This document shows positions 1 to 5,242 of a stretch of DNA of 15,366 nt, in pieces. This stretch comes from Escherichia coli (lineage in GTDB: Bacteria; Pseudomonadota; Gammaproteobacteria; Enterobacterales; Enterobacteriaceae), in assembly GCF_003334315.1 (NCBI RefSeq), contig NZ_QOWR01000075.1; one strand, given 5' to 3'. Position numbers and translations under genes: made by a program. The notes under the pieces are model-generated. The model was not told where the DNA came from. It was given only the letters and a program-made list of their open reading frames with translations, and did not search any database. Every line of letters starts with the position of its first letter. Position 1 is the first letter of the stretch.

Positions 1-105
1 ATTATATCGAATGTGATTACAATCGGTGGCGGCGGCACAGTTGGTGTGGCGGCCTCAGTCCGGAACAATTTGAAAACAAGAACCTCGCTTAGGCCTGTGT
101 CCATA

Positions 106-459
106 TTACGTGGGTAGGATCAGATCAGGAACAGCTTTAACAGTAGCTTCTTGTTGTGTCTTGGCTTCTTGTCTAGCTTCTTCTTGTGGAATATCTACCA
201 CTTGATAGACATTAGAACTTCCTGGTCGTGCATCTTTTATAATTAACCCCATTTCGAGCAATTTCTTAACCCTTTCCTCTGCTGCTCTTGGTGTTATGCC
301 AAAAACATCGCCTATCTTAGCGTAAGAGGGAAATGCACGATCAAACCCTTTCAGATAGCAGTAAAGATTTTTAGCACTATCTGTAAATTTATGCCCGTTT
401 ACTTGGCTTATTTTTAGAATCCACATAGGAACTTTTACAAATTGTTCTTCATTAATCAT
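106..459 (-). CDS. small winged-helix/HTH DNA-binding protein, 117 aa from ATG 459 (the ORF track shows a GTG-extended 125 aa form reaching 483)
   Basis: Open frame 106..483. The ATG at 457-459 is preceded by AAGGAG (467-472) 7 nt upstream, while the GTG at 483 has no SD. The pattern VPMWILK..AKNLYCYLKGF..FPSYAKIGDVFGITPRAAEERVKKLLEMGLI resembles the HTH_36 / initiator-type winged helix of phage and plasmid proteins (from memory, not searched). The tail is acidic and Q-rich. Confidence 0.6.
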   Translation of the reverse strand: MINEEQFVKVPMWILKISQVNGHKFTDSAKNLYCYLKGFDRAFPSYAKIGDVFGITPRAAEERVKKLLEMGLIIKDARPGSSNVYQVVDIPQEEARQEAKTQQEATVKAVPDLILPT

Positions 460-512: not shown

Positions 513-683
513 TCACTTGCTTTTATTTGAGAGTGTTTCAGCCTCTCTTTTCAACATATCAAGAATGTAATCTGTGACAGTGATACGTCTACTTCTGGCT
601 TCTTTAAATAACACCTGAAATACTTCATCAGGAATATGAAAGCAAGTGCGTGGTTGTCTTTTCTTTTCTGTAGTTTCGCTCAT
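513..683 (-). CDS. 56 aa ribbon-helix-helix-like (Arc/CopG/MetJ style) protein, MSETTEKKRQPRTCFHIPDEVFQVLFKEARSRRITVTDYILDMLKREAETLSNKSK
   Basis: Not in the ORF track because it is under 60 aa; I translated it by hand. ATG at 681-683, TGA at 513-515, AAGGAG at 690-695 (6 nt spacer). The basic N-terminus followed by beta-strand-like FHIPDEVF and then two helices is the RHH layout. It lies between two other same-strand genes with short gaps (19 nt to the upstream gene, 53 nt to the downstream one). Confidence 0.55.
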   Translation of the reverse strand: MSETTEKKRQPRTCFHIPDEVFQVLFKEARSRRITVTDYILDMLKREAETLSNKSK

Positions 684-702
684 AGTTTTCTCCTTCTATT
701 CT

Positions 703-891
703 TTACTCTGTTTCAGATTCTTTTTCATTTTTTCTTAATTCATCAATAATCTTGAGTGCTTCATTGAAGCAAGCTGCTCGCTCTGGATAACCTCGACTCC
801 TTGCCATATTACGATTCATTACTATTTGGTGGCGTGTAAGCTCACCTTTTTTAAATGCCGCGACAACGTGTTCCGATGTGAACCATTTCAT
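703..891 (-). CDS. 62 aa hypothetical protein, first gene of the three-gene operon
   Basis: ATG at 889-891 with AAGGAG at 898-903 (6 nt spacer); TAA at 703-705. I recognise no family. The C-terminus is helical and charged. Confidence 0.55.
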   Translation of the reverse strand: MKWFTSEHVVAAFKKGELTRHQIVMNRNMARSRGYPERAACFNEALKIIDELRKNEKESETE

Positions 892-1001: not shown

Positions 1002-1030
1002 ATTATTACATATAAAGAAACATTTGTCAA
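1002..1030 (-). promoter_or_regulatory. sigma70-like promoter for the 891->106 operon
   Basis: On the minus strand: TTGACA (1030..1025), 17 nt spacer, AATAAT (1007..1002). This predicts a leader of about 100 nt before the ATG at 891. Confidence 0.45.
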
Positions 1031-1629: not shown

Positions 1630-1661
1630 TTTCGGTGTCGCCTCTGGCTTTTCCACCGAAA
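1630..1661. other. 8 bp stem hairpin / dyad (TTTCGGTG ... CACCGAAA, 16 nt loop)
   Basis: Arms at 1630-1637 and 1654-1661 are perfectly complementary. There is no U-tract on either strand, so it is not called a terminator. Confidence 0.4.
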
Positions 1662-1663
1662 AC

Positions 1664-1828
1664 AATTACACAACTACAGAGAATAACGAGAGTTATTAAA
1701 TGTAGAAAGTGGAATTGTATTGAGGCTTAGTGAAATTACACGAGGAAAGCAGAGTGTAATTGAGCTTTAGCCGCTCTCTCTTCGAGTAATTACACAACTA
1801 CAGAGAATAACAGAGTTATTAAATGTAG
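1664..1828 (+). repeat. pair of 42/41 bp direct repeats (1664-1705 and 1788-1828) bracketing an AATTACAC/GTGTAATT inverted pair
   Basis: Both copies read AATTACACAACTACAGAGAATAAC(G)AGAGTTATTAAATGTAG and are identical except for a 1 nt indel. Each contains the dyad AATAAC-N3/4-GTTATT. Between them, AATTACAC (1734-1741) and GTGTAATT (1754-1761) form a perfect 8 bp inverted repeat. Confidence 0.9.
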
Positions 1829-1889
1829 GAGGGTAATTAAGAGTTAGAGAGAGTTAACACATAAGCAATCAGTATGATTGGTTAGGTGA

Positions 1890-2070
1890 TTACTCTTCTG
1901 CGCACAGCGCAATAGTATTTCTTCGTGGGCGTTACCGCCAACGATAGTTACACGAAGAAAGTAACGCTTTGCTTTCGGTGTGAGCGGAACGGGCCAGCCA
2001 CGAAGCCCAAAGGTAGCGGAGTAAGGCTGCTTGCCAGAGAGTGAAGCTAACGCCGGAAGGCAAAAGATCA
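1890..2070. ncRNA. candidate structured RNA (or gene relic): a GC-richer, hairpin-dense patch inside very AT-rich DNA
   Basis: Perfect 10 bp helix TTTCTTCGTG (1918-1927) / CACGAAGAAA (1951-1960), enclosing GGCG-TTAC-CGCC (1928-1939). An alternative pairing is GCGTTAC (1929-1935) with GTAACGC (1961-1967). Other hairpins: TGCGC-ACA-GCGCA (1899-1911), GGGC/GCCC (1991-1994/2005-2008) and TTGCC/GGCAA (2031-2035/2059-2063). The overlapping 75 aa minus-strand ORF has no SD. Strand is undetermined. Confidence 0.3.
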
Positions 2071-2128
2071 TATAAATAAATATATAATATTATAATTTAA
2101 TAAGTAATTTAATAAATGATCTAATAGG

Positions 2129-2262
2129 TAACAGAATTCTGTGGGGGTGTCTAACAGTTTTCTGTGGGGGTGTCTAACAGAATTCTGTTAGGGTGGGGTA
2201 ACAGAATTTTGTTAGGGTAAAAATCTCTTTAAAAGTTAAGATTAACAGAATTCTGTGGGGGG
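2129..2262 (+). repeat. array of 5 dyad sites TAACAG-N4-CTGT(TA), each followed by a G-run
   Basis: Copies at 2129-2147, 2152-2170, 2175-2198, 2199-2218 and 2243-2262 (start spacing 23, 23, 24, 44 bp). The core ACAGAATTCTGT is a perfect 12 bp palindrome, and the copy at 2175 is a perfect 16 bp palindrome, TAACAGAATTCTGTTA. Confidence 0.9.
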
Positions 2263-2325
2263 TAGCTCACAGTGACCTACCCCCTAGTTCACTATGACCT
2301 ACCCCCCTAGGTCACAGTGACCTAT
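2263..2325 (+). repeat. iteron triplet A (22, 23, 18 bp units: TAGCTCACAGTGACCTACCCCC / TAGTTCACTATGACCTACCCCCC / TAGGTCACAGTGACCTAT)
   Basis: Head-to-tail direct repeats at 2263-2284, 2285-2307 and 2308-2325. The preceding G-run and the first unit form the inverted repeat GGGGGTAG ... CTACCCCC. Confidence 0.9.
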
Positions 2326-2383
2326 ATAGTATAAAGAATATTATTTATATTATTTAATTATAGTATTTAATTATAGTATTGGT
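2326..2383. repeat. extremely AT-rich spacer with a perfect 13 bp tandem TATTTAATTATAG x2 (2351-2363, 2364-2376); DUE-like
   Basis: Read directly from the sequence. It is flanked by the iteron and dyad arrays. A second AT-rich tract (2072-2128) carries the 11-mer TAATTTAATAA twice (2093-2103, 2105-2115). Confidence 0.7.
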
Positions 2384-2483
2384 GGAACTCATTTCCTAGG
2401 TAGGTAGGAACTAATTTCCTAAGTAGGTAGGAAACCACTTCCTAGGTTACTTCCTAAATAGATCGGAAATCATTTCCTAGGTG
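2384..2483 (+). repeat. array of 4 dyad sites GGAA-N5-TTCC followed by TAGGT/TAAGT
   Basis: Sites at 2384-2396, 2407-2419, 2430-2442 and 2465-2477 (start spacing 23, 23, 35 bp). There is a lone TTCCTA half-site at 2451-2456. Confidence 0.9.
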
Positions 2484-2501
2484 TTATTTATACTTATCGG
2501 G

Positions 2502-2556
2502 TATCAGTTTTGATAGGGGTATCAGACTTGATAGGGGTAACAGAATTCTGTGGGGG
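2502..2556 (+). repeat. array of 3 dyad-plus-GGGG units (TATCAGTTTTGATAGGGG, TATCAGACTTGATAGGGG, TAACAGAATTCTGTGGGGG)
   Basis: Units at 2502-2519, 2520-2537 and 2538-2556, with an 18 bp period. The TATCA..TGATA arms differ from the TAACAG..CTGTTA arms by symmetric (compensatory) changes in both half-sites. Confidence 0.9.
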
Positions 2557-2619
2557 TAGTTCACTATGACCTACCCCTAGTTCACTGTGAGCTACCCCTA
2601 GTTCACTGTGAGCTACCGT
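2557..2619 (+). repeat. iteron triplet B (3 x 21 bp TAGTTCAC(T/A)(G/A)TGA(G/C)CTACCCC)
   Basis: Units at 2557-2577, 2578-2598 and 2599-2619. They have the same orientation and family as 2263-2325. The module [TAACAGAATTCTGT + G-run + 3 iterons] is therefore duplicated (2243-2325 and 2538-2619). Confidence 0.9.
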
Positions 2620-2711
2620 TACATCCAATCATCTGTCGATGTAACATATCGTTACTACCAACTTTCTTACAAAGAGCATTTCAGATAGCTGAATGTAACC
2701 TCTCGTTACAT
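2618..2711. repeat. four GTTACAT heptamers arranged as two dyads
   Basis: GTTACATC (2618-2625) / GATGTAAC (2638-2645) with a 12 bp spacer. ATGTAAC (2693-2699) / GTTACAT (2705-2711) with a 5 bp spacer. There is an extra CGTTAC at 2650-2655. Confidence 0.8.
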
Positions 2712-2732
2712 CCATTTGTCACATAGCACTCT

Positions 2733-3208
2733 GTGTAATGCCTTTCTATGTGTGTGCCATAATCCCCCTATATTCCCTGTGTAAATCATAGAATAATGCT
2801 CTCTATTCCCTGTGTAATTCCCTACTAAAAATCAATGAAAAAGTAGCTTAAAGTTGCAATTCTTACTTTCTTCACTTTTACATCACTTTCGCAAAGCCTT
2901 GTGTAATGCGGCTTACAGAGCACCATCAGAAATTGTTGGCTAAAAATTATTCTGCTTGTTTCTGAACGAGTTTTCTCGTTTGTGCAAATTTTAAAATTTA
3001 TTTTGTTTTTACAGCCTTATTTCGTGTAATGCGTGGCATAGCAAGCCCTTTTCTTGTGTTGTCAAGACATTTGGCAACGTTCAAACATCTGTTTAGAAAT
3101 GCCAAATTGTTGATCTAACAAATAAACCTGTATAAACAGAACACCATTTAATCTATTCCCCTGTGTATCCATTAGGCATACCAAATGAATACAGCTAAAT
3201 CGTGTAAT
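2733..3208 (+). repeat. field of GTGTAAT-containing motifs, including the perfect 14-mer TATTCCCTGTGTAA x2
   Basis: GTGTAATGC at 2733, 2901 and 3024; GTGTAAT at 3202. TATTCCCTGTGTAA at 2771-2784 and 2804-2817 (33 bp apart). Variant TATTCCCCTGTGTA at 3154-3167. Related ATTCCCTTATGTAAT near 1173-1187. CCCTGTGTA on the minus strand at 4604-4612. Confidence 0.8.
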
Positions 3209-3281
3209 ATTCCGTACCCATAAGGCTTGAAACAGACCAAATGAATACGGTATACTCATTTGCATTTAAGTAGTGCCAAAT
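3069..3281. promoter_or_regulatory. res-like recombinase-binding region (CCAAAT-containing half-sites) upstream of the serine recombinase gene
   Basis: CCAAATGAATAC at 3181-3192 and 3237-3248. An imperfect inverted partner GTATACTCATTTG lies at 3250-3262. TGCCAAAT is at 3100-3107 and 3274-3281, with its complement ATTTGGCA at 3069-3076. The arrangement resembles the multi-subsite res regions next to tnpR-type genes (established layout; the assignment here is inference). Confidence 0.4.
3227..3256 (+). promoter_or_regulatory. sigma70-like promoter of the recombinase gene, overlapped by the repeated half-sites
   Basis: TTGAAA (3227-3232), 18 nt spacer, TATACT (3251-3256). The CCAAATGAATAC repeat lies within the spacer, which suggests autoregulation. 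Confidence 0.45.
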
Positions 3282-3301: not shown

Positions 3302-3841
3302 ATGAGCAATATCGGTTATAAGCGTGTGAGCACTGTAGATCAGAACACTGATCGCCAGCTTGCAGGAGTAACTCTCGATAAAGTCTTTGAAGATAAGCTG
3401 TCTGGTAAAGACACTAACCGCCCAGGCTTACAAGCGTGTTTAGCCTATCTGAGAGAAGGCGACACCTTACACGTGCACTCTCTCGACCGTTTAGGACGTA
3501 ACACCTTAGACATCCTTGCTTTAGTTGAACAACTTAATAATCGAGGTGTAATTGTTCGATTTCACAAAGAAGGAATCATTGCAGACATTACAAGCGCGAT
3601 GGGAAAGATGATGCTTACGATGTTGTCGGCAGTTGCAACGTGTGAACGTGAACTGATGTTAGAACGTAAACGAGAAGCGCAAGCCGTCAATCCTACAAAA
3701 CGTGGTAATGGAAAAGCAGTGGATCGAGAAGGTATAAAGAAAGCCCTTTCTGATGGCCTGTCAGTGCGTAAAACCGCCGAGAGCTTTAATGTTGCTCCTT
3801 CAACGGTGCAACGTATCAAGAAGGAAGAAGAGGAGGCGTAA
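3302..3841 (+). CDS. small serine recombinase (resolvase/invertase family), 179 aa
   Basis: N-terminal GYKRVSTVDQNTDRQ carries the catalytic-serine motif (YxRVSTxxQ). DRLGRN and the SAVATCERE helix are present. C-terminal HTH: GLSVRKTAESFNVAPSTVQRIKK. RBS AAGAGGA at 3291-3297. Confidence 0.9.
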   Translation: MSNIGYKRVSTVDQNTDRQLAGVTLDKVFEDKLSGKDTNRPGLQACLAYLREGDTLHVHSLDRLGRNTLDILALVEQLNNRGVIVRFHKEGIIADITSAMGKMMLTMLSAVATCERELMLERKREAQAVNPTKRGNGKAVDREGIKKALSDGLSVRKTAESFNVAPSTVQRIKKEEEEA

Positions 3842-5166: not shown

Positions 5167-5242
5167 TGGTGCCGATAATAGGAGTCGAACCTACGACCTT
5201 CGCATTACGAATGCGCTGCTCTACCAACTGAGCTATATCGGC
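5167..5242 (-). tRNA. thrW: tRNA-Thr (anticodon CGU)
   Basis: The reverse complement reads GCCGATATAGCTCAGTTGGTAGAGCAGCGCATTCGTAATGCGAAGGTCGTAGGTTCGACTCCTATTATCGGCACCA. It is 76 nt with an encoded CCA, a CGT anticodon in the loop and a GGTTCGA T-arm. Confidence 0.97.

What the first reader, a model, noticed from the sequence alone, without database searches (positions are those of the whole stretch)
2129..2711. Four different dyad-symmetric site families packed head-to-tail: a multi-protein landing pad
Within 580 bp there are four kinds of sites:
- 6 copies of TAACAG-N4-CTGT(TA).
- 2 copies of TATCA-N4-TGATA. These differ from the first family by symmetric changes in both arms, as expected for a paralogous dimeric binder.
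- 4 copies of GGAA-N5-TTCC(TAGGT).
- 4 GTTACAT heptamers forming two dyads of opposite polarity.

Each family implies a distinct dimeric DNA-binding specificity. G-runs (plus strand) follow the first two families and C-runs end the iterons, so the first iteron of each triplet sits inside a 7-8 bp inverted repeat (GGGGGTAG...CTACCCCC). I do not recognise this density of unrelated operators from any standard origin, partition site or promoter.
Basis: seen in the sequence. Interest (0 to 1): 0.65.

Follow-up and report, generated by a model that had tools for sequence, protein, structure and literature searches.

The report
Stacked replication origins of a phage satellite
The dense palindromes are very probably the replication-origin region of a small phage-parasite island in E. 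coli, built from five different sets of initiator-binding repeats, each matching a different variant of one initiator protein, which also marks it as the likely target of phage nucleases that have copied those DNA-binding domains.

Summary
The repeats are real and far beyond chance. They lie in the non-coding core of a ~12.6 kb island at tRNA-Thr (thrW). This island belongs to the putative E. coli phage satellites reported in 2023 (PMC10448857), whose origin that paper does not map.

In all 23 related loci that could be scored, plus the window, the array next to an 87-92% AT block matches the N-terminal DNA-binding type of the island's RepA_N-like initiator: N1-A, N2-I, N3-B, N4-H, N5-C. The N5-C pairing was predicted before it was observed.

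Simple islands carry one array. The window is a composite: an A-type origin, cognate to its own IS3-truncated RepA, followed by a complete B-type origin and remnants of C, I and H.

Virulent Stephanstirmvirinae phages encode nucleases that carry two of these same DNA-binding domains, N3 plus one of N1, N4 or N5. This parallels ICP1 Odn and the PLE origin.

Verdict: a real, iteron-type satellite origin, and a new stacked, multi-specificity variant of a known kind. All binding and replication steps are inferred, not shown.

The parts
1..122 (.). End of an IS3 element that interrupts the island's repA gene
   Evidence: Window 1-135 matches IS3 ends annotated 'IS3-like element IS3 family transposase' at 97.8% identity, with 976 plasmid records matching. 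The terminal inverted repeat ...ccatattacgtgggtaggatca ends at about position 122.
106..459 (-). Truncated repA (117 aa from ATG; the 125-aa ORF 106-483 from GTG). It keeps the N1-type winged-helix DNA-binding domain and lacks the C-terminal domain and the ...DFDIPF tail.
   Evidence: It matches PHROG 'replication initiation protein/O-like' families at 5e-08 to 6e-06 and Pfam HTH_36 weakly. Its N-domain matches L003's at 86% and it is 97% identical to the 217-aa L001 protein. An AF2 model of family member P0001 has as its best PDB matches the PLE RepA-NTD (4RO3) and the RepA_N plasmid initiators 4PQL, 4PT7 and 5KBJ.
513..891 (-). Two conserved small ORFs (56 aa at 513-683; 62 aa at 703-891) upstream of repA in the same leftward operon. 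Function unknown.
   Evidence: Found. Syntenic small CDSs are annotated in every relative.
1002..1030 (-). Promoter-like site (TTGACA-17-AATAAT, TG extended) for the leftward small-ORF/repA operon
   Evidence: 11 of 12 matches. It lies about 1.1 kb from the arrays.
2060..2128 (.). AT block 1 (87% AT): the presumed unwinding element of the A-type origin
   Evidence: An equivalent 83-93% AT block precedes the first array in nearly every relative scored (77% in L008).
2129..2258 (+). A array: five TAACAG-N4-CTGT(TA) dyads, each followed by a G-run, spaced 23, 23, 24 and 44 bp. These are the cognate iterons of the island's own N1-type RepA.
   Evidence: Every N1 locus (window, L001, L003, L111) has A as its AT-proximal array, and L003 and L111 have A as their only multi-copy array. 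Window 2072-2281 is 87% identical to the simple origin of L003.
2263..2324 (.). I array 1: three 17-bp palindromes TAGNTCACNNTGANCTA followed by C-runs, spaced 22 and 23 bp. These are iterons of the N2 RepA type.
   Evidence: Every N2 locus (L002, L008-L012, L110, L112, L113) has I as its AT-proximal array.
2325..2381 (.). AT block 2 (91% AT): the start of a complete second, B-type origin module
   Evidence: Window 2323-2521 is 88% identical to L004 and window 2341-2575 is 97% identical to L013, both B-type origins of N3 islands.
2382..2479 (.). B array: four (TA)GGAA-N5-TTCC(TA) dyads spaced 23, 23 and 35 bp. These are iterons of the N3 RepA type, which is also the invariant second DNA-binding domain of the phage nucleases.
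   Evidence: N3 loci L004, L007 and L013 have B first, and L006 has a degenerate B array. The phage proteins carry an N3 core at 87-93% identity.
2502..2533 (.). C sites: two TATCA-N4-TGATA dyads followed by GGGG, spaced 18 bp. These are iterons of the N5 RepA type.
   Evidence: The pairing was predicted first and then confirmed. N5 islands L025 and L107-L109 carry four regular C dyads, plus one or two irregular copies, immediately after the AT block.
2538..2553 (+). Single A-type dyad inside the B-type module
   Evidence: The same solitary A site follows the C sites in L013, L012, L108 and L110.
2557..2615 (.). I array 2: three 17-bp palindromes spaced 21 bp
   Evidence: The copy number of this block varies among relatives from 1 to 3.
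2616..2711 (.). H sites: a half-site CCGTTACATCC (2616-2626) and two GTAAC-N5-GTTAC dyads (2641-2655 and 2695-2709). These are iterons of the N4 RepA type.
   Evidence: N4 islands L005, L114 and L115 have five H dyads directly after the AT block. Window 2614-2720 is 87% identical to L005.
3302..3841 (+). Small serine recombinase (179 aa), a neighbour of the origin but not needed to explain the arrays
   Evidence: Pfam Resolvase 7.5e-34 and PHROG 'DNA invertase' 1.3e-54. It is missing in L002, L008, L112 and L113, which keep their arrays.
5167..5242 (-). tRNA-Thr (CGT), thrW: the island's integration site and right-hand boundary
   Evidence: The synteny proA-proB-phoE-crl-frsA-gpt-pepD is seen.

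Best explanation
Window 2060-2711 is the replication-origin region of a putative phage satellite integrated at thrW.

**Unit structure.** Each origin unit is an AT-rich block followed by 3-6 phased, dyad-symmetric iterons. Dimers of the N-terminal winged-helix (RepA_N-like) domain of the satellite's initiator are inferred to bind the iterons. The initiator gene lies about 1.6 kb to the left. Binding next to the AT block would open the DNA. The initiator's C-terminal part ends in an SSB-tip-like ...DFDIPF motif and would recruit replication proteins.

**Specificity code.** The family has at least five interchangeable specificity pairs: N1-A (TAACAG-N4-CTGT), N2-I (TAGNTCACNNTGANCTA), N3-B (GGAA-N5-TTCC), N4-H (GTAAC-N5-GTTAC) and N5-C (TATCA-N4-TGATA).

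**This window.** It holds a stacked origin. First comes an A-type origin cognate to its own N1 RepA, whose gene is cut by IS3. A complete B-type origin with its own AT block follows. Short runs of C, I and H iterons surround them. The stack most likely arose by unequal recombination between sibling satellites, which always leaves the cognate array first. The extra arrays should still be bindable in trans by RepA variants of co-resident satellites. They should also be bindable by the origin-directed nucleases of Stephanstirmvirinae phages, which carry N3 plus one of N1, N4 or N5.

**Shown versus inferred.** Shown: the repeats, their phasing, the AT blocks, the allele-array covariation, the modular homology to simple origins, and the phage chimeras. 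Inferred: binding, origin firing, trans-use of the extra arrays, and cleavage.
For: 1. **Non-random, phased dyads beside AT blocks**.
2. **Initiator identity.** The neighbouring gene is a replication-initiator homologue. It matches PHROG 'replication initiation/O-like' families at 7.6e-11 and 5e-08. An AF2 model of family member P0001 has mean pLDDT 70.8, about 90 in the N-domain. Its top PDB matches are the PLE RepA-NTD (4RO3) and the RepA_N plasmid initiators 4PQL, 4PT7 and 5KBJ. One search confirms that 4RO3 is PLE RepA and that RepA_N iterons are typically semi-palindromic direct repeats.
3. **Covariation.** In all 23 informative related loci, plus the window, the AT-proximal array matches the RepA N-type. 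The window and 8 loci defined the code. A further 15 loci then tested it: L009-L013, L025, L107-L113, L114 and L115.
4. **A blind prediction held.** C was the only family without a partner. The orphan N5 domain of phage muut is 100% identical in DNA to the repA 5' end of E. coli islands. Those islands carry C arrays directly after the AT block.
5. **Coupling survives shuffling.** The pairing holds even though the ~1.2-kb spacer type (W or X), the RepA C-terminal type and the integration site (thrW, tRNA-Leu, thiM, yecR) vary independently of it.
6. **The window is a juxtaposition of simple origins.** Window 2072-2281 matches L003, 2341-2575 matches L013 at 97%, and 2614-2720 matches L005.
7. 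**Phage chimeras.** Mt1B1_P17, BI-EHEC, inny and muut encode proteins with two RepA N-domains plus a nuclease domain. The nuclease domain matches Pfam MUG113 at its cut-off and PHROG 'endonuclease' at 2e-18. PMC10448857 reports the same proteins as odn homologues. The experimentally proven precedent is PLE and Odn (PMC8263062).
Against: - No experiment shows that these E. coli islands replicate, that RepA binds any of these sites, or that the islands are mobilised. PMC10448857 itself calls them putative satellites.
- Sequence support for 'initiator' is modest. Pfam gives only a sub-threshold HTH_36 hit, and the Foldseek E-values are 3e-3 to 6e-2.
- The covariation sample is not phylogenetically independent, and repA and the arrays are only 1.6-2.5 kb apart.
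- Single stray copies of non-cognate sites (one I, one A, the H half-site) persist even in simple origins and are unexplained.
- No DnaA box was found in the region, so host-factor involvement is unknown.
- The window's own RepA is truncated, so this copy may be inert.
Confidence: 0.8

Rival explanations
1. The non-cognate arrays (I, B, C, H) are kept by selection as working secondary origins. On this reading the satellite can be replicated in trans by the RepA of any co-resident sibling satellite. This is a 'universal origin', or satellite-on-satellite parasitism.
For: - The second module is a complete origin with its own 91% AT block and four well-phased B sites.
- Composites are common: 6 of the 24 scored (window, L001, L002, L010, L012, L110), and many 74%-coverage hits.
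- Genomes hold up to 7 places that match this region.
- This copy has lost its own RepA C-terminus to IS3 yet keeps intact arrays.
Against: - A single unequal crossover explains the order of the arrays without any selection.
- Extra arrays also add targets for phage nucleases that carry N3 and N1 domains.
- Co-residence of a matching RepA type was not tested for any composite.
- Array copy numbers drift widely (I ranges from 1 to 6), as expected for neutral slippage.
Confidence: 0.2
2. This is the first reader's model: a multi-regulator landing pad where several different transcription factors of the island or host bind together to control a promoter or a switch.
For: There are five distinct dyad families within 580 bp. 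Small uncharacterised ORFs lie nearby.
Against: - Syntenic relatives work with only one family.
- Every family tracks an allele of one protein, and only one allele is encoded per island.
- The only promoter-like sites with at least 10 of 12 matches are about 1.1 kb to the left and 0.5 kb to the right of the arrays. One weaker site (9 of 12) lies at 2317-2344.
- The sites do not occur elsewhere in the window.
Confidence: 0.04
3. The dyads are recombination sites (res-like or invertible-segment sites) for the adjacent small serine recombinase.
For: A Resolvase/invertase-family gene starts 590 bp to the right. Resolvases do bind arrays of imperfect dyads.
Against: - Islands without the recombinase gene keep the arrays (L002, L008, L112, L113).
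- Array type varies fivefold among islands whose recombinases are nearly identical (98-100% between the window, L009-L012 and L025), and instead tracks RepA.
- No inverted arrangement was seen in any of the 24 scored.
Confidence: 0.03
4. The arrays are centromere-like partition sites or packaging (pac/cos, small-terminase) recognition sites that let the island use several helpers.
For: Phased repeats with flanking G/C runs resemble some parS, parC or cosB-like arrays. A satellite without a terminase must carry a packaging signal somewhere.
Against: - The island has no ParA/ParB or terminase gene.
- The 631-bp region has no relevant match in 50,697 phage records, so it is not copied from a helper's pac or cos site.
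- The covariation is with a RepA_N-type initiator domain.
Confidence: 0.04

Closest known systems
PLE origin of replication and RepA (RepA_N family) of Vibrio cholerae, with the ICP1 origin-directed nuclease Odn (PMC7145576, PMC8263062)
   Same: - It is a satellite island with a non-coding origin made of semi-palindromic iterons.
- The initiator's N-terminal DNA-binding domain co-varies with the origin while its C-terminal domain is exchanged independently.
- The best structural match of the E. coli RepA model is the PLE RepA-NTD (4RO3).
- A virulent phage fuses a copy of that DNA-binding domain to a T5orf172/GIY-YIG-type nuclease.
   Different: - There are five specificity classes here against two in the PLEs described in that paper.
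- Whole origins of different classes are stacked in tandem in one element.
- The phage nucleases carry two DNA-binding domains in tandem.
- Nothing has been tested experimentally in the E. coli system.
[quoted passage not shown]
   Same: This is the same element family: Tyr integrase, baseplate/Dit-like protein, tape-measure-like protein, major capsid protein, modular RepA, and tRNA integration. The phage genes are also the same.
   Different: - That paper does not locate the origin or mention iterons (0 occurrences).
- It states that the second RepA_N domain of the nucleases has no detectable homology to the cognate satellite repA. Here that domain is 87-93% identical to the N3 RepA type of other islands, whose iterons are the GGAA-N5-TTCC family.
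Lambdoid phage ori and O protein (established knowledge)
   Same: Four or so dyad-symmetric iterons of about 18 bp are phased at roughly two helical turns next to an AT-rich block. The initiator's N-terminal domain sets origin specificity, and its C-terminal domain contacts the replication machinery. RepA gives PHROG 'O-like' hits.
   Different: The origin lies outside the initiator gene. Pfam Phage_rep_O is not matched at threshold. No P-like helicase loader is encoded.
SaPI/PICI origins (established knowledge; Ubeda et al.)
   Same: It is a satellite origin with island-specific iterons flanking an AT-rich segment, and with an island-specific initiator.
   Different: SaPI Rep is a helicase paired with a primase. 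Here the initiator is a small RepA_N-like protein with no enzymatic domain.

Membership tests
Iteron-type origin of a RepA_N-family initiator (PLE / pSK41 type) | Tandem, phased, semi-palindromic repeats in a non-coding stretch | tested here: met
   Five families were found, spaced 18-24 bp, with dyad symmetry. One search gives the description of RepA_N iterons.
Iteron-type origin of a RepA_N-family initiator (PLE / pSK41 type) | An adjacent AT-rich region suitable for unwinding | tested here: met
   Window 2060-2128 is 87% AT and 2325-2381 is 91% AT. The same holds in relatives.
Iteron-type origin of a RepA_N-family initiator (PLE / pSK41 type) | A cis-encoded initiator with the RepA_N fold | tested here: inconclusive
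   Pfam RepA_N is not hit; only HTH_36 appears, below its cut-off. The top Foldseek matches of the AF2 model are 4RO3 (PLE RepA-NTD), 4PQL, 4PT7 and 5KBJ, but at E = 2.6e-3 to 6e-2. PMC10448857 reports RepA_N by HHsearch.
Iteron-type origin of a RepA_N-family initiator (PLE / pSK41 type) | Initiator DNA-binding domain and iterons co-vary as a module | tested here: met
   All 23 informative loci and the window agree, and one blind prediction (N5-C) held. The pairing is independent of spacer type and C-terminal type.
Iteron-type origin of a RepA_N-family initiator (PLE / pSK41 type) | The initiator binds the iterons and the region supports replication | not testable with these tools
   This needs EMSA or footprinting and replication assays.
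Putative E. coli satellites of Stephanstirmvirinae phages (PMC10448857) | Gene set of Tyr integrase, baseplate/Dit-like protein, tape-measure-like protein, major capsid protein and RepA, integrated next to a tRNA | tested here: met
   The syntenic relative L001 has this set. The window itself holds only the right-hand part, because IS3 cuts it at position 122. thrW is at 5167-5242.
Putative E. coli satellites of Stephanstirmvirinae phages (PMC10448857) | The RepA N-domain is near-identical to a DNA-binding domain of a phage odn homologue | tested here: met
   The N1 domain of L003 is 100% identical over 104 aa to the Mt1B1_P17 protein. The window's N-domain matches that reference at 86%, and P0117 carries the window's linker variant.
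Lambda-type ori / O protein | Initiator matches Pfam Phage_rep_O and the origin lies inside the initiator gene | tested here: not met
   Phage_rep_O appears only as a sub-threshold hit in the phage chimera (16.6 bits against a 28.7 cut-off). The arrays lie 1.6 kb outside repA.
res / invertible-segment sites of a serine recombinase | The sites depend on, and co-occur with, the recombinase | tested here: not met
   The arrays are present in islands that lack the gene. Array type is uncoupled from the recombinase allele.

The most novel reading that the evidence does not exclude
Stacked origins are adaptive 'universal' origins. By carrying iterons for every RepA_N specificity in the population, a satellite can be replicated by whichever sibling satellite is induced in the same cell, even if its own repA is dead, as it is here. 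The two-headed phage nucleases (N3 plus N1, N4 or N5) would then have evolved specifically to recognise such composite origins. This would be a three-level arms race of phage, satellite and satellite-of-satellite, written into one 650-bp stretch of DNA.
Probability: 0.2. Interest if true: 0.8.

Novelty: new variant of a known kind. Interest (0 to 1): 0.6.

Why it matters
**A testable code.** The result gives the 2023 putative E. coli satellite family a concrete origin and a five-letter code linking initiator allele to iteron. That code predicts which RepA fires which origin. It also predicts which islands each phage nuclease should cut: Mt1B1_P17 and BI-EHEC should cut A and B, inny should cut H and B, and muut should cut C and B. 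None of the four phages examined carries an N2 domain to match I.

**A tractable model.** This makes a PLE/ICP1-style arms race directly testable in E. coli with available phages.

**A new behaviour.** Whole origins of different specificity accumulate in tandem. This bears on satellite incompatibility, cross-activation, and escape from or exposure to origin-directed nucleases.

Tried and rejected
- **BLAST of the region against phages** (near and distant modes) gave no relevant match. The arrays are therefore not borrowed from a helper phage's origin or packaging site.
- **Plasmid BLAST** gave only fragmentary hits, one of them a chromosome filed as a plasmid.
- **Rfam** found only the tRNA.
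- **Folding of 1885-2062** gave a weak signal (z = -2.0 on the + strand, -0.7 on the - strand). I did not pursue an RNA there.
- **My first TATCAG pattern** had the wrong spacing and found nothing.
- **The search for related loci with the RepA alignment** failed because no stretch is conserved enough.
- **The recombinase as an anchor** gave only two relevant loci among species-representative genomes and five in IMG/VR. The element appears to be essentially restricted to Escherichia.
- **A DnaA-box search** found none in the region.
- **A PDB sequence search with the phage chimera** found nothing useful.
- **Literature searches** on thrW, CP-933H and Stephanstirmvirinae satellites were uninformative.
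- **Locus L116** was uninformative because IS2 removes its origin.
- **L024** is a short contig with no repA.
- **Rejected readings:** operator hub, res sites, and centromere or pac sites. The reasons are given under the rival explanations.
Full report

Yes. Window 2129-2711 holds tandem dyad-symmetric sites far in excess of chance.
- TAACAG-N4-CTGT occurs six times. The search gave 8 strand-matches against 0.76 expected, and 0 of 200 shuffles reached that.
- GGAA-N5-TTCC occurs four times.
- TATCA-N4-TGATA occurs twice.
- The 17-bp palindrome TAGNTCACNNTGANCTA occurs six times. That is 12 strand-matches against 0.01 expected.
- The four GTTACAT heptamers exist but are only marginally enriched on their own.

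Relatives carrying a pure array show that the true unit of the heptamer family is the dyad GTAAC-N5-GTTAC. In the window it lies at 2641-2655 and 2695-2709, with a half-site at 2616-2626. There are therefore five families, which I call A, I, B, C and H. Spacing is 21-24 bp for A, I and B, and 18 bp for C. Two AT blocks (2060-2128, 87% AT; 2325-2381, 91% AT) each sit immediately left of an array.

**2. Where is it?**

The window is E. coli-type chromosome with the gene order pepD-gpt-frsA-crl-phoE-proB-proA-thrW. Positions 1 to about 5166 are the right-hand part of an island integrated at tRNA-Thr.

The syntenic relative L001 shows the whole ~12.6 kb element. It encodes:
- a tyrosine integrase;
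- a Dit-like baseplate protein;
- a tape-measure-like protein;
- a major capsid protein;
- several small ORFs;
- a ~217-aa helix-turn-helix protein that matches phage 'replication initiation/O-like' families;
- two small ORFs, then about 2.4 kb of non-coding DNA that contains the finding;
- a small serine recombinase, next to thrW.

About 700 of 5,426 complete E. coli genomes carry related sequence. Some carry up to seven copies of parts of it.

In the window the initiator gene is cut by an IS3 element (window 1-122). That leaves a 117/125-aa product with only the DNA-binding domain.

**3. The region is modular.**

Relatives at the same locus carry only part of the window's arrays.
- L003 has an AT block, five A sites, one I site and the H half-site.
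- L004 has an AT block, four B sites, one C site and one I site.
- L005 has an AT block and five H sites.
- L008 has an AT block and four or five I sites.

Local alignment shows the window is a juxtaposition of these simple units. Window 2072-2281 matches L003 at 87%. Window 2341-2575 matches L013 at 97%, and window 2323-2521 matches L004 at 88%. Window 2614-2720 matches L005 at 87%.

The window therefore holds a complete A-type unit followed by a complete B-type unit with its own AT block, plus short runs of C, I and H.

**4. What decides the array type?**

Aligning the initiator proteins shows sharply distinct N-terminal domains joined to independently shuffled C-terminal parts. The array next to the AT block tracks the N-domain type:

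| RepA N-type | AT-proximal array | Loci |
|---|---|---|
| N1 | A | window, L001, L003, L111 |
| N2 | I | L002, L008-L012, L110, L112, L113 |
| N3 | B | L004, L007, L013 (L006 degenerate) |
| N4 | H | L005, L114, L115 |
| N5 | C | L025, L107-L109 |

The window and eight loci defined the code, and 15 further loci then fitted it without exception.

The strongest test was a prediction. C was the only family without a partner, and phage muut carried an N-domain of unknown partner. The DNA of that domain is 100% identical to the repA 5' end of E. coli thrW islands. Those islands carry C dyads directly after the AT block: four regular ones plus one or two irregular copies.

The pairing holds across two unrelated spacer types (W and X), three C-terminal types and four integration sites. 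Simple physical linkage is therefore an unlikely explanation.

**5. What kind of protein is it?**

Pfam gives only a weak HTH_36 hit. PHROGs give 'replication initiation protein', 'O-like' and 'DnaD-like' matches.

An AlphaFold2 model of family member P0001 has a pLDDT of about 90 over the N-domain. Its best PDB matches are 4RO3, 4PQL, 4PT7 and 5KBJ.
- 4RO3 is the N-terminal domain of PLE RepA.
- The other three are RepA_N initiators of staphylococcal plasmids, one of them in complex with iteron DNA.

The scores are weak (E = 3e-3 to 6e-2), but they agree with the HHsearch assignment in PMC10448857. RepA_N iterons are described as semi-palindromic direct repeats, which is what is seen here.

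The proteins end in YEDFDIPF, EEDDFDIPF or IYDSIPF. This resembles the C-terminal tip of E. coli SSB (DFDDDIPF, from established knowledge). A role in recruiting SSB-binding replication proteins is my inference.

**6. Mechanism proposed.**

Each unit of AT block plus phased dyads is an origin.
- RepA dimers of the matching N-type would coat the array and open the AT block.
- The C-terminal part would recruit the replisome.
- In this window the A array (2129-2258) beside AT block 1 is the cognate origin of the island's own, now truncated, N1 RepA.
- The B unit (2325-2479 and onward) is an origin of the N3 type.
- I, C and H are iterons of N2, N5 and N4.

A single unequal crossover between two sibling satellites gives the order 'cognate origin first, foreign origin second'. 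That order is seen in all six composites (window, L001, L002, L010, L012, L110), so no selection need be invoked.

All binding and firing steps are inferred.

**7. The phage connection and the literature.**

A homology search with RepA returned proteins of 321-367 aa from virulent Stephanstirmvirinae phages: Mt1B1_P17, BI-EHEC, inny and muut. Each consists of two RepA N-domains in tandem plus a GIY-YIG-type nuclease domain. The nuclease domain matches Pfam MUG113 at its cut-off, T5orf172 weakly, and PHROG 'endonuclease' at 2e-18.
- The first domain is N1 in Mt1B1_P17 (100% identical over 104 aa to the L003 RepA), N4 in inny and N5 in muut.
- The second domain is always N3, at 87-93% identity.

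This is the architecture of ICP1 Odn, the origin-directed nuclease. Odn copies the PLE RepA DNA-binding domain and cuts the PLE origin at its iterons. It is thought to drive replicon-module swapping and origin restructuring in the satellite (PMC8263062).

Barth, Dunham and Seed (2023, PMC10448857) already reported these three coliphage 'odn homologues', 224 putative E. coli satellites, and the modularity of their RepA N-domains. That paper never mentions iterons and does not map the origin. It also describes the second DNA-binding domain as having no detectable homology to the cognate satellite repA.

The additions made here are:
- the origin itself;
- the five-way allele-iteron code;
- the identification of the second nuclease domain with the N3/B class;
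- the existence of stacked origins.

**8. Rivals.**
- **Transcriptional operator hub.** This is unlikely. One array suffices in relatives, only one binder allele is encoded per island, and the two promoter-like sites with at least 10 of 12 matches lie 0.5-1.1 kb away.
- **Serine-recombinase sites.** This is unlikely. Islands without the recombinase keep the arrays, and near-identical recombinases sit next to different array types.
- **Partition or packaging sites.** This is unsupported. The island has no Par or terminase genes, and the region has no counterpart in 50,697 phage records.
- **Extra arrays as selected, working secondary origins.** This remains open. I give it about 0.2.

**9. Verdict.**

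The density, however, comes from stacking alternative origin modules of one initiator family, not from a multi-regulator hub.

The feature belongs to a known kind, the iteron origin of a RepA_N-type satellite replicon caught in an arms race with phage origin-directed nucleases. It is a new variant of that kind, with five specificity classes and tandem composite origins.

Interest is moderate to high. It turns a bioinformatic satellite prediction into a set of precise experiments in a tractable host.

Noticed in passing
window 1-122 and 106-483: An IS3 element end interrupts the island's repA, leaving only the DNA-binding domain. Other islands have IS3, IS66 or IS2 insertions in or next to repA or the origin (L107, L109, L116). 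Insertional inactivation of this replicon may therefore be recurrent.
   Followed up: partly
L001:7032-7685, L002:4590-5282, L004:5049-5717, L006:4788-5507 (RepA C-termini); absent from the window copy: Full-length RepA proteins end in ...YEDFDIPF, ...EEDDFDIPF or ...IYDSIPF. This resembles the C-terminal tip of E. coli SSB (DFDDDIPF), which docks many replication and repair proteins. The tail is disordered in the AF2 model (residues 219-222, pLDDT below 50). It may be how this enzyme-less initiator recruits a replisome.
   Followed up: no
L104:2501-3487, L105:2438-3541, L106:2399-3397 (phages Mt1B1_P17, inny, muut): The invariant second DNA-binding domain of the phage origin-directed-nuclease homologues is 87-93% identical to the N3 RepA type of E. 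coli islands. PMC10448857 describes this domain as lacking detectable homology to the cognate satellite repA. None of the four phages examined carries an N2 domain. N2 was the most frequent class among the RepA homologues retrieved (87 of 120), but that count is biased by the choice of query.
   Followed up: partly
window 2731-3210: A further repeat family, (C)TGTGTAAT in contexts such as CCCTGTGTAA(A/T)T, CCTTGTGTAATGCGGC and TTCGTGTAATGCGTGGC, lies between the arrays and the recombinase gene. The exact octamer occurs three times here and twice more at 1665 and 1789 on the minus strand. It is conserved in all relatives, including those without the recombinase. In L112 and L113 the sequence diverges right after a CCCCTGTGTAAT motif, which may mark a cassette boundary or a recombination site.
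   Followed up: no
window 1640-2062: The spacer left of AT block 1 contains a ~125-bp direct repeat (AATTACACAACTACAGAGAATAAC...GTTATTAAATGTAG at about 1664 and 1786). It also contains a conserved GC-rich segment with a TGCGCACAGCGCA hairpin. This spacer exists in two unrelated versions among islands (W and X), and both keep the GCGCACAGCGCAA and GTGTGAGCGG motifs. The RNA folding signal is weak (z = -2.0 on the + strand).
   Followed up: partly
window 2263-2324 and 2557-2615; L002:6935-7061; L008:6961-7061: The copy number of the I palindrome varies from 1 to 6 between otherwise similar islands. One I copy and the H half-site persist to the right of every simple A, B or C origin. This looks like nested remnants, or possibly a shared functional end of the origin.
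   Followed up: partly
L006:4126-11480; L114; L111:6667-6751; L007:9495-9815: Related islands sit at other sites: between thiM and rcnR with a duplicated TPP riboswitch, at a tRNA-Leu, and near yecR. Some carry extra cargo such as an HNH endonuclease, an HTH protein or a DUF4365 protein (L110) between the recombinase and the integrase.
   Followed up: no
L024 (JAEYLX010000052.1): A 4-kb contig binned as a 'Bacillota bacterium' MAG carries this E. coli island's recombinase (99% identical) and I-type arrays. This is most likely a binning contaminant.
   Followed up: no
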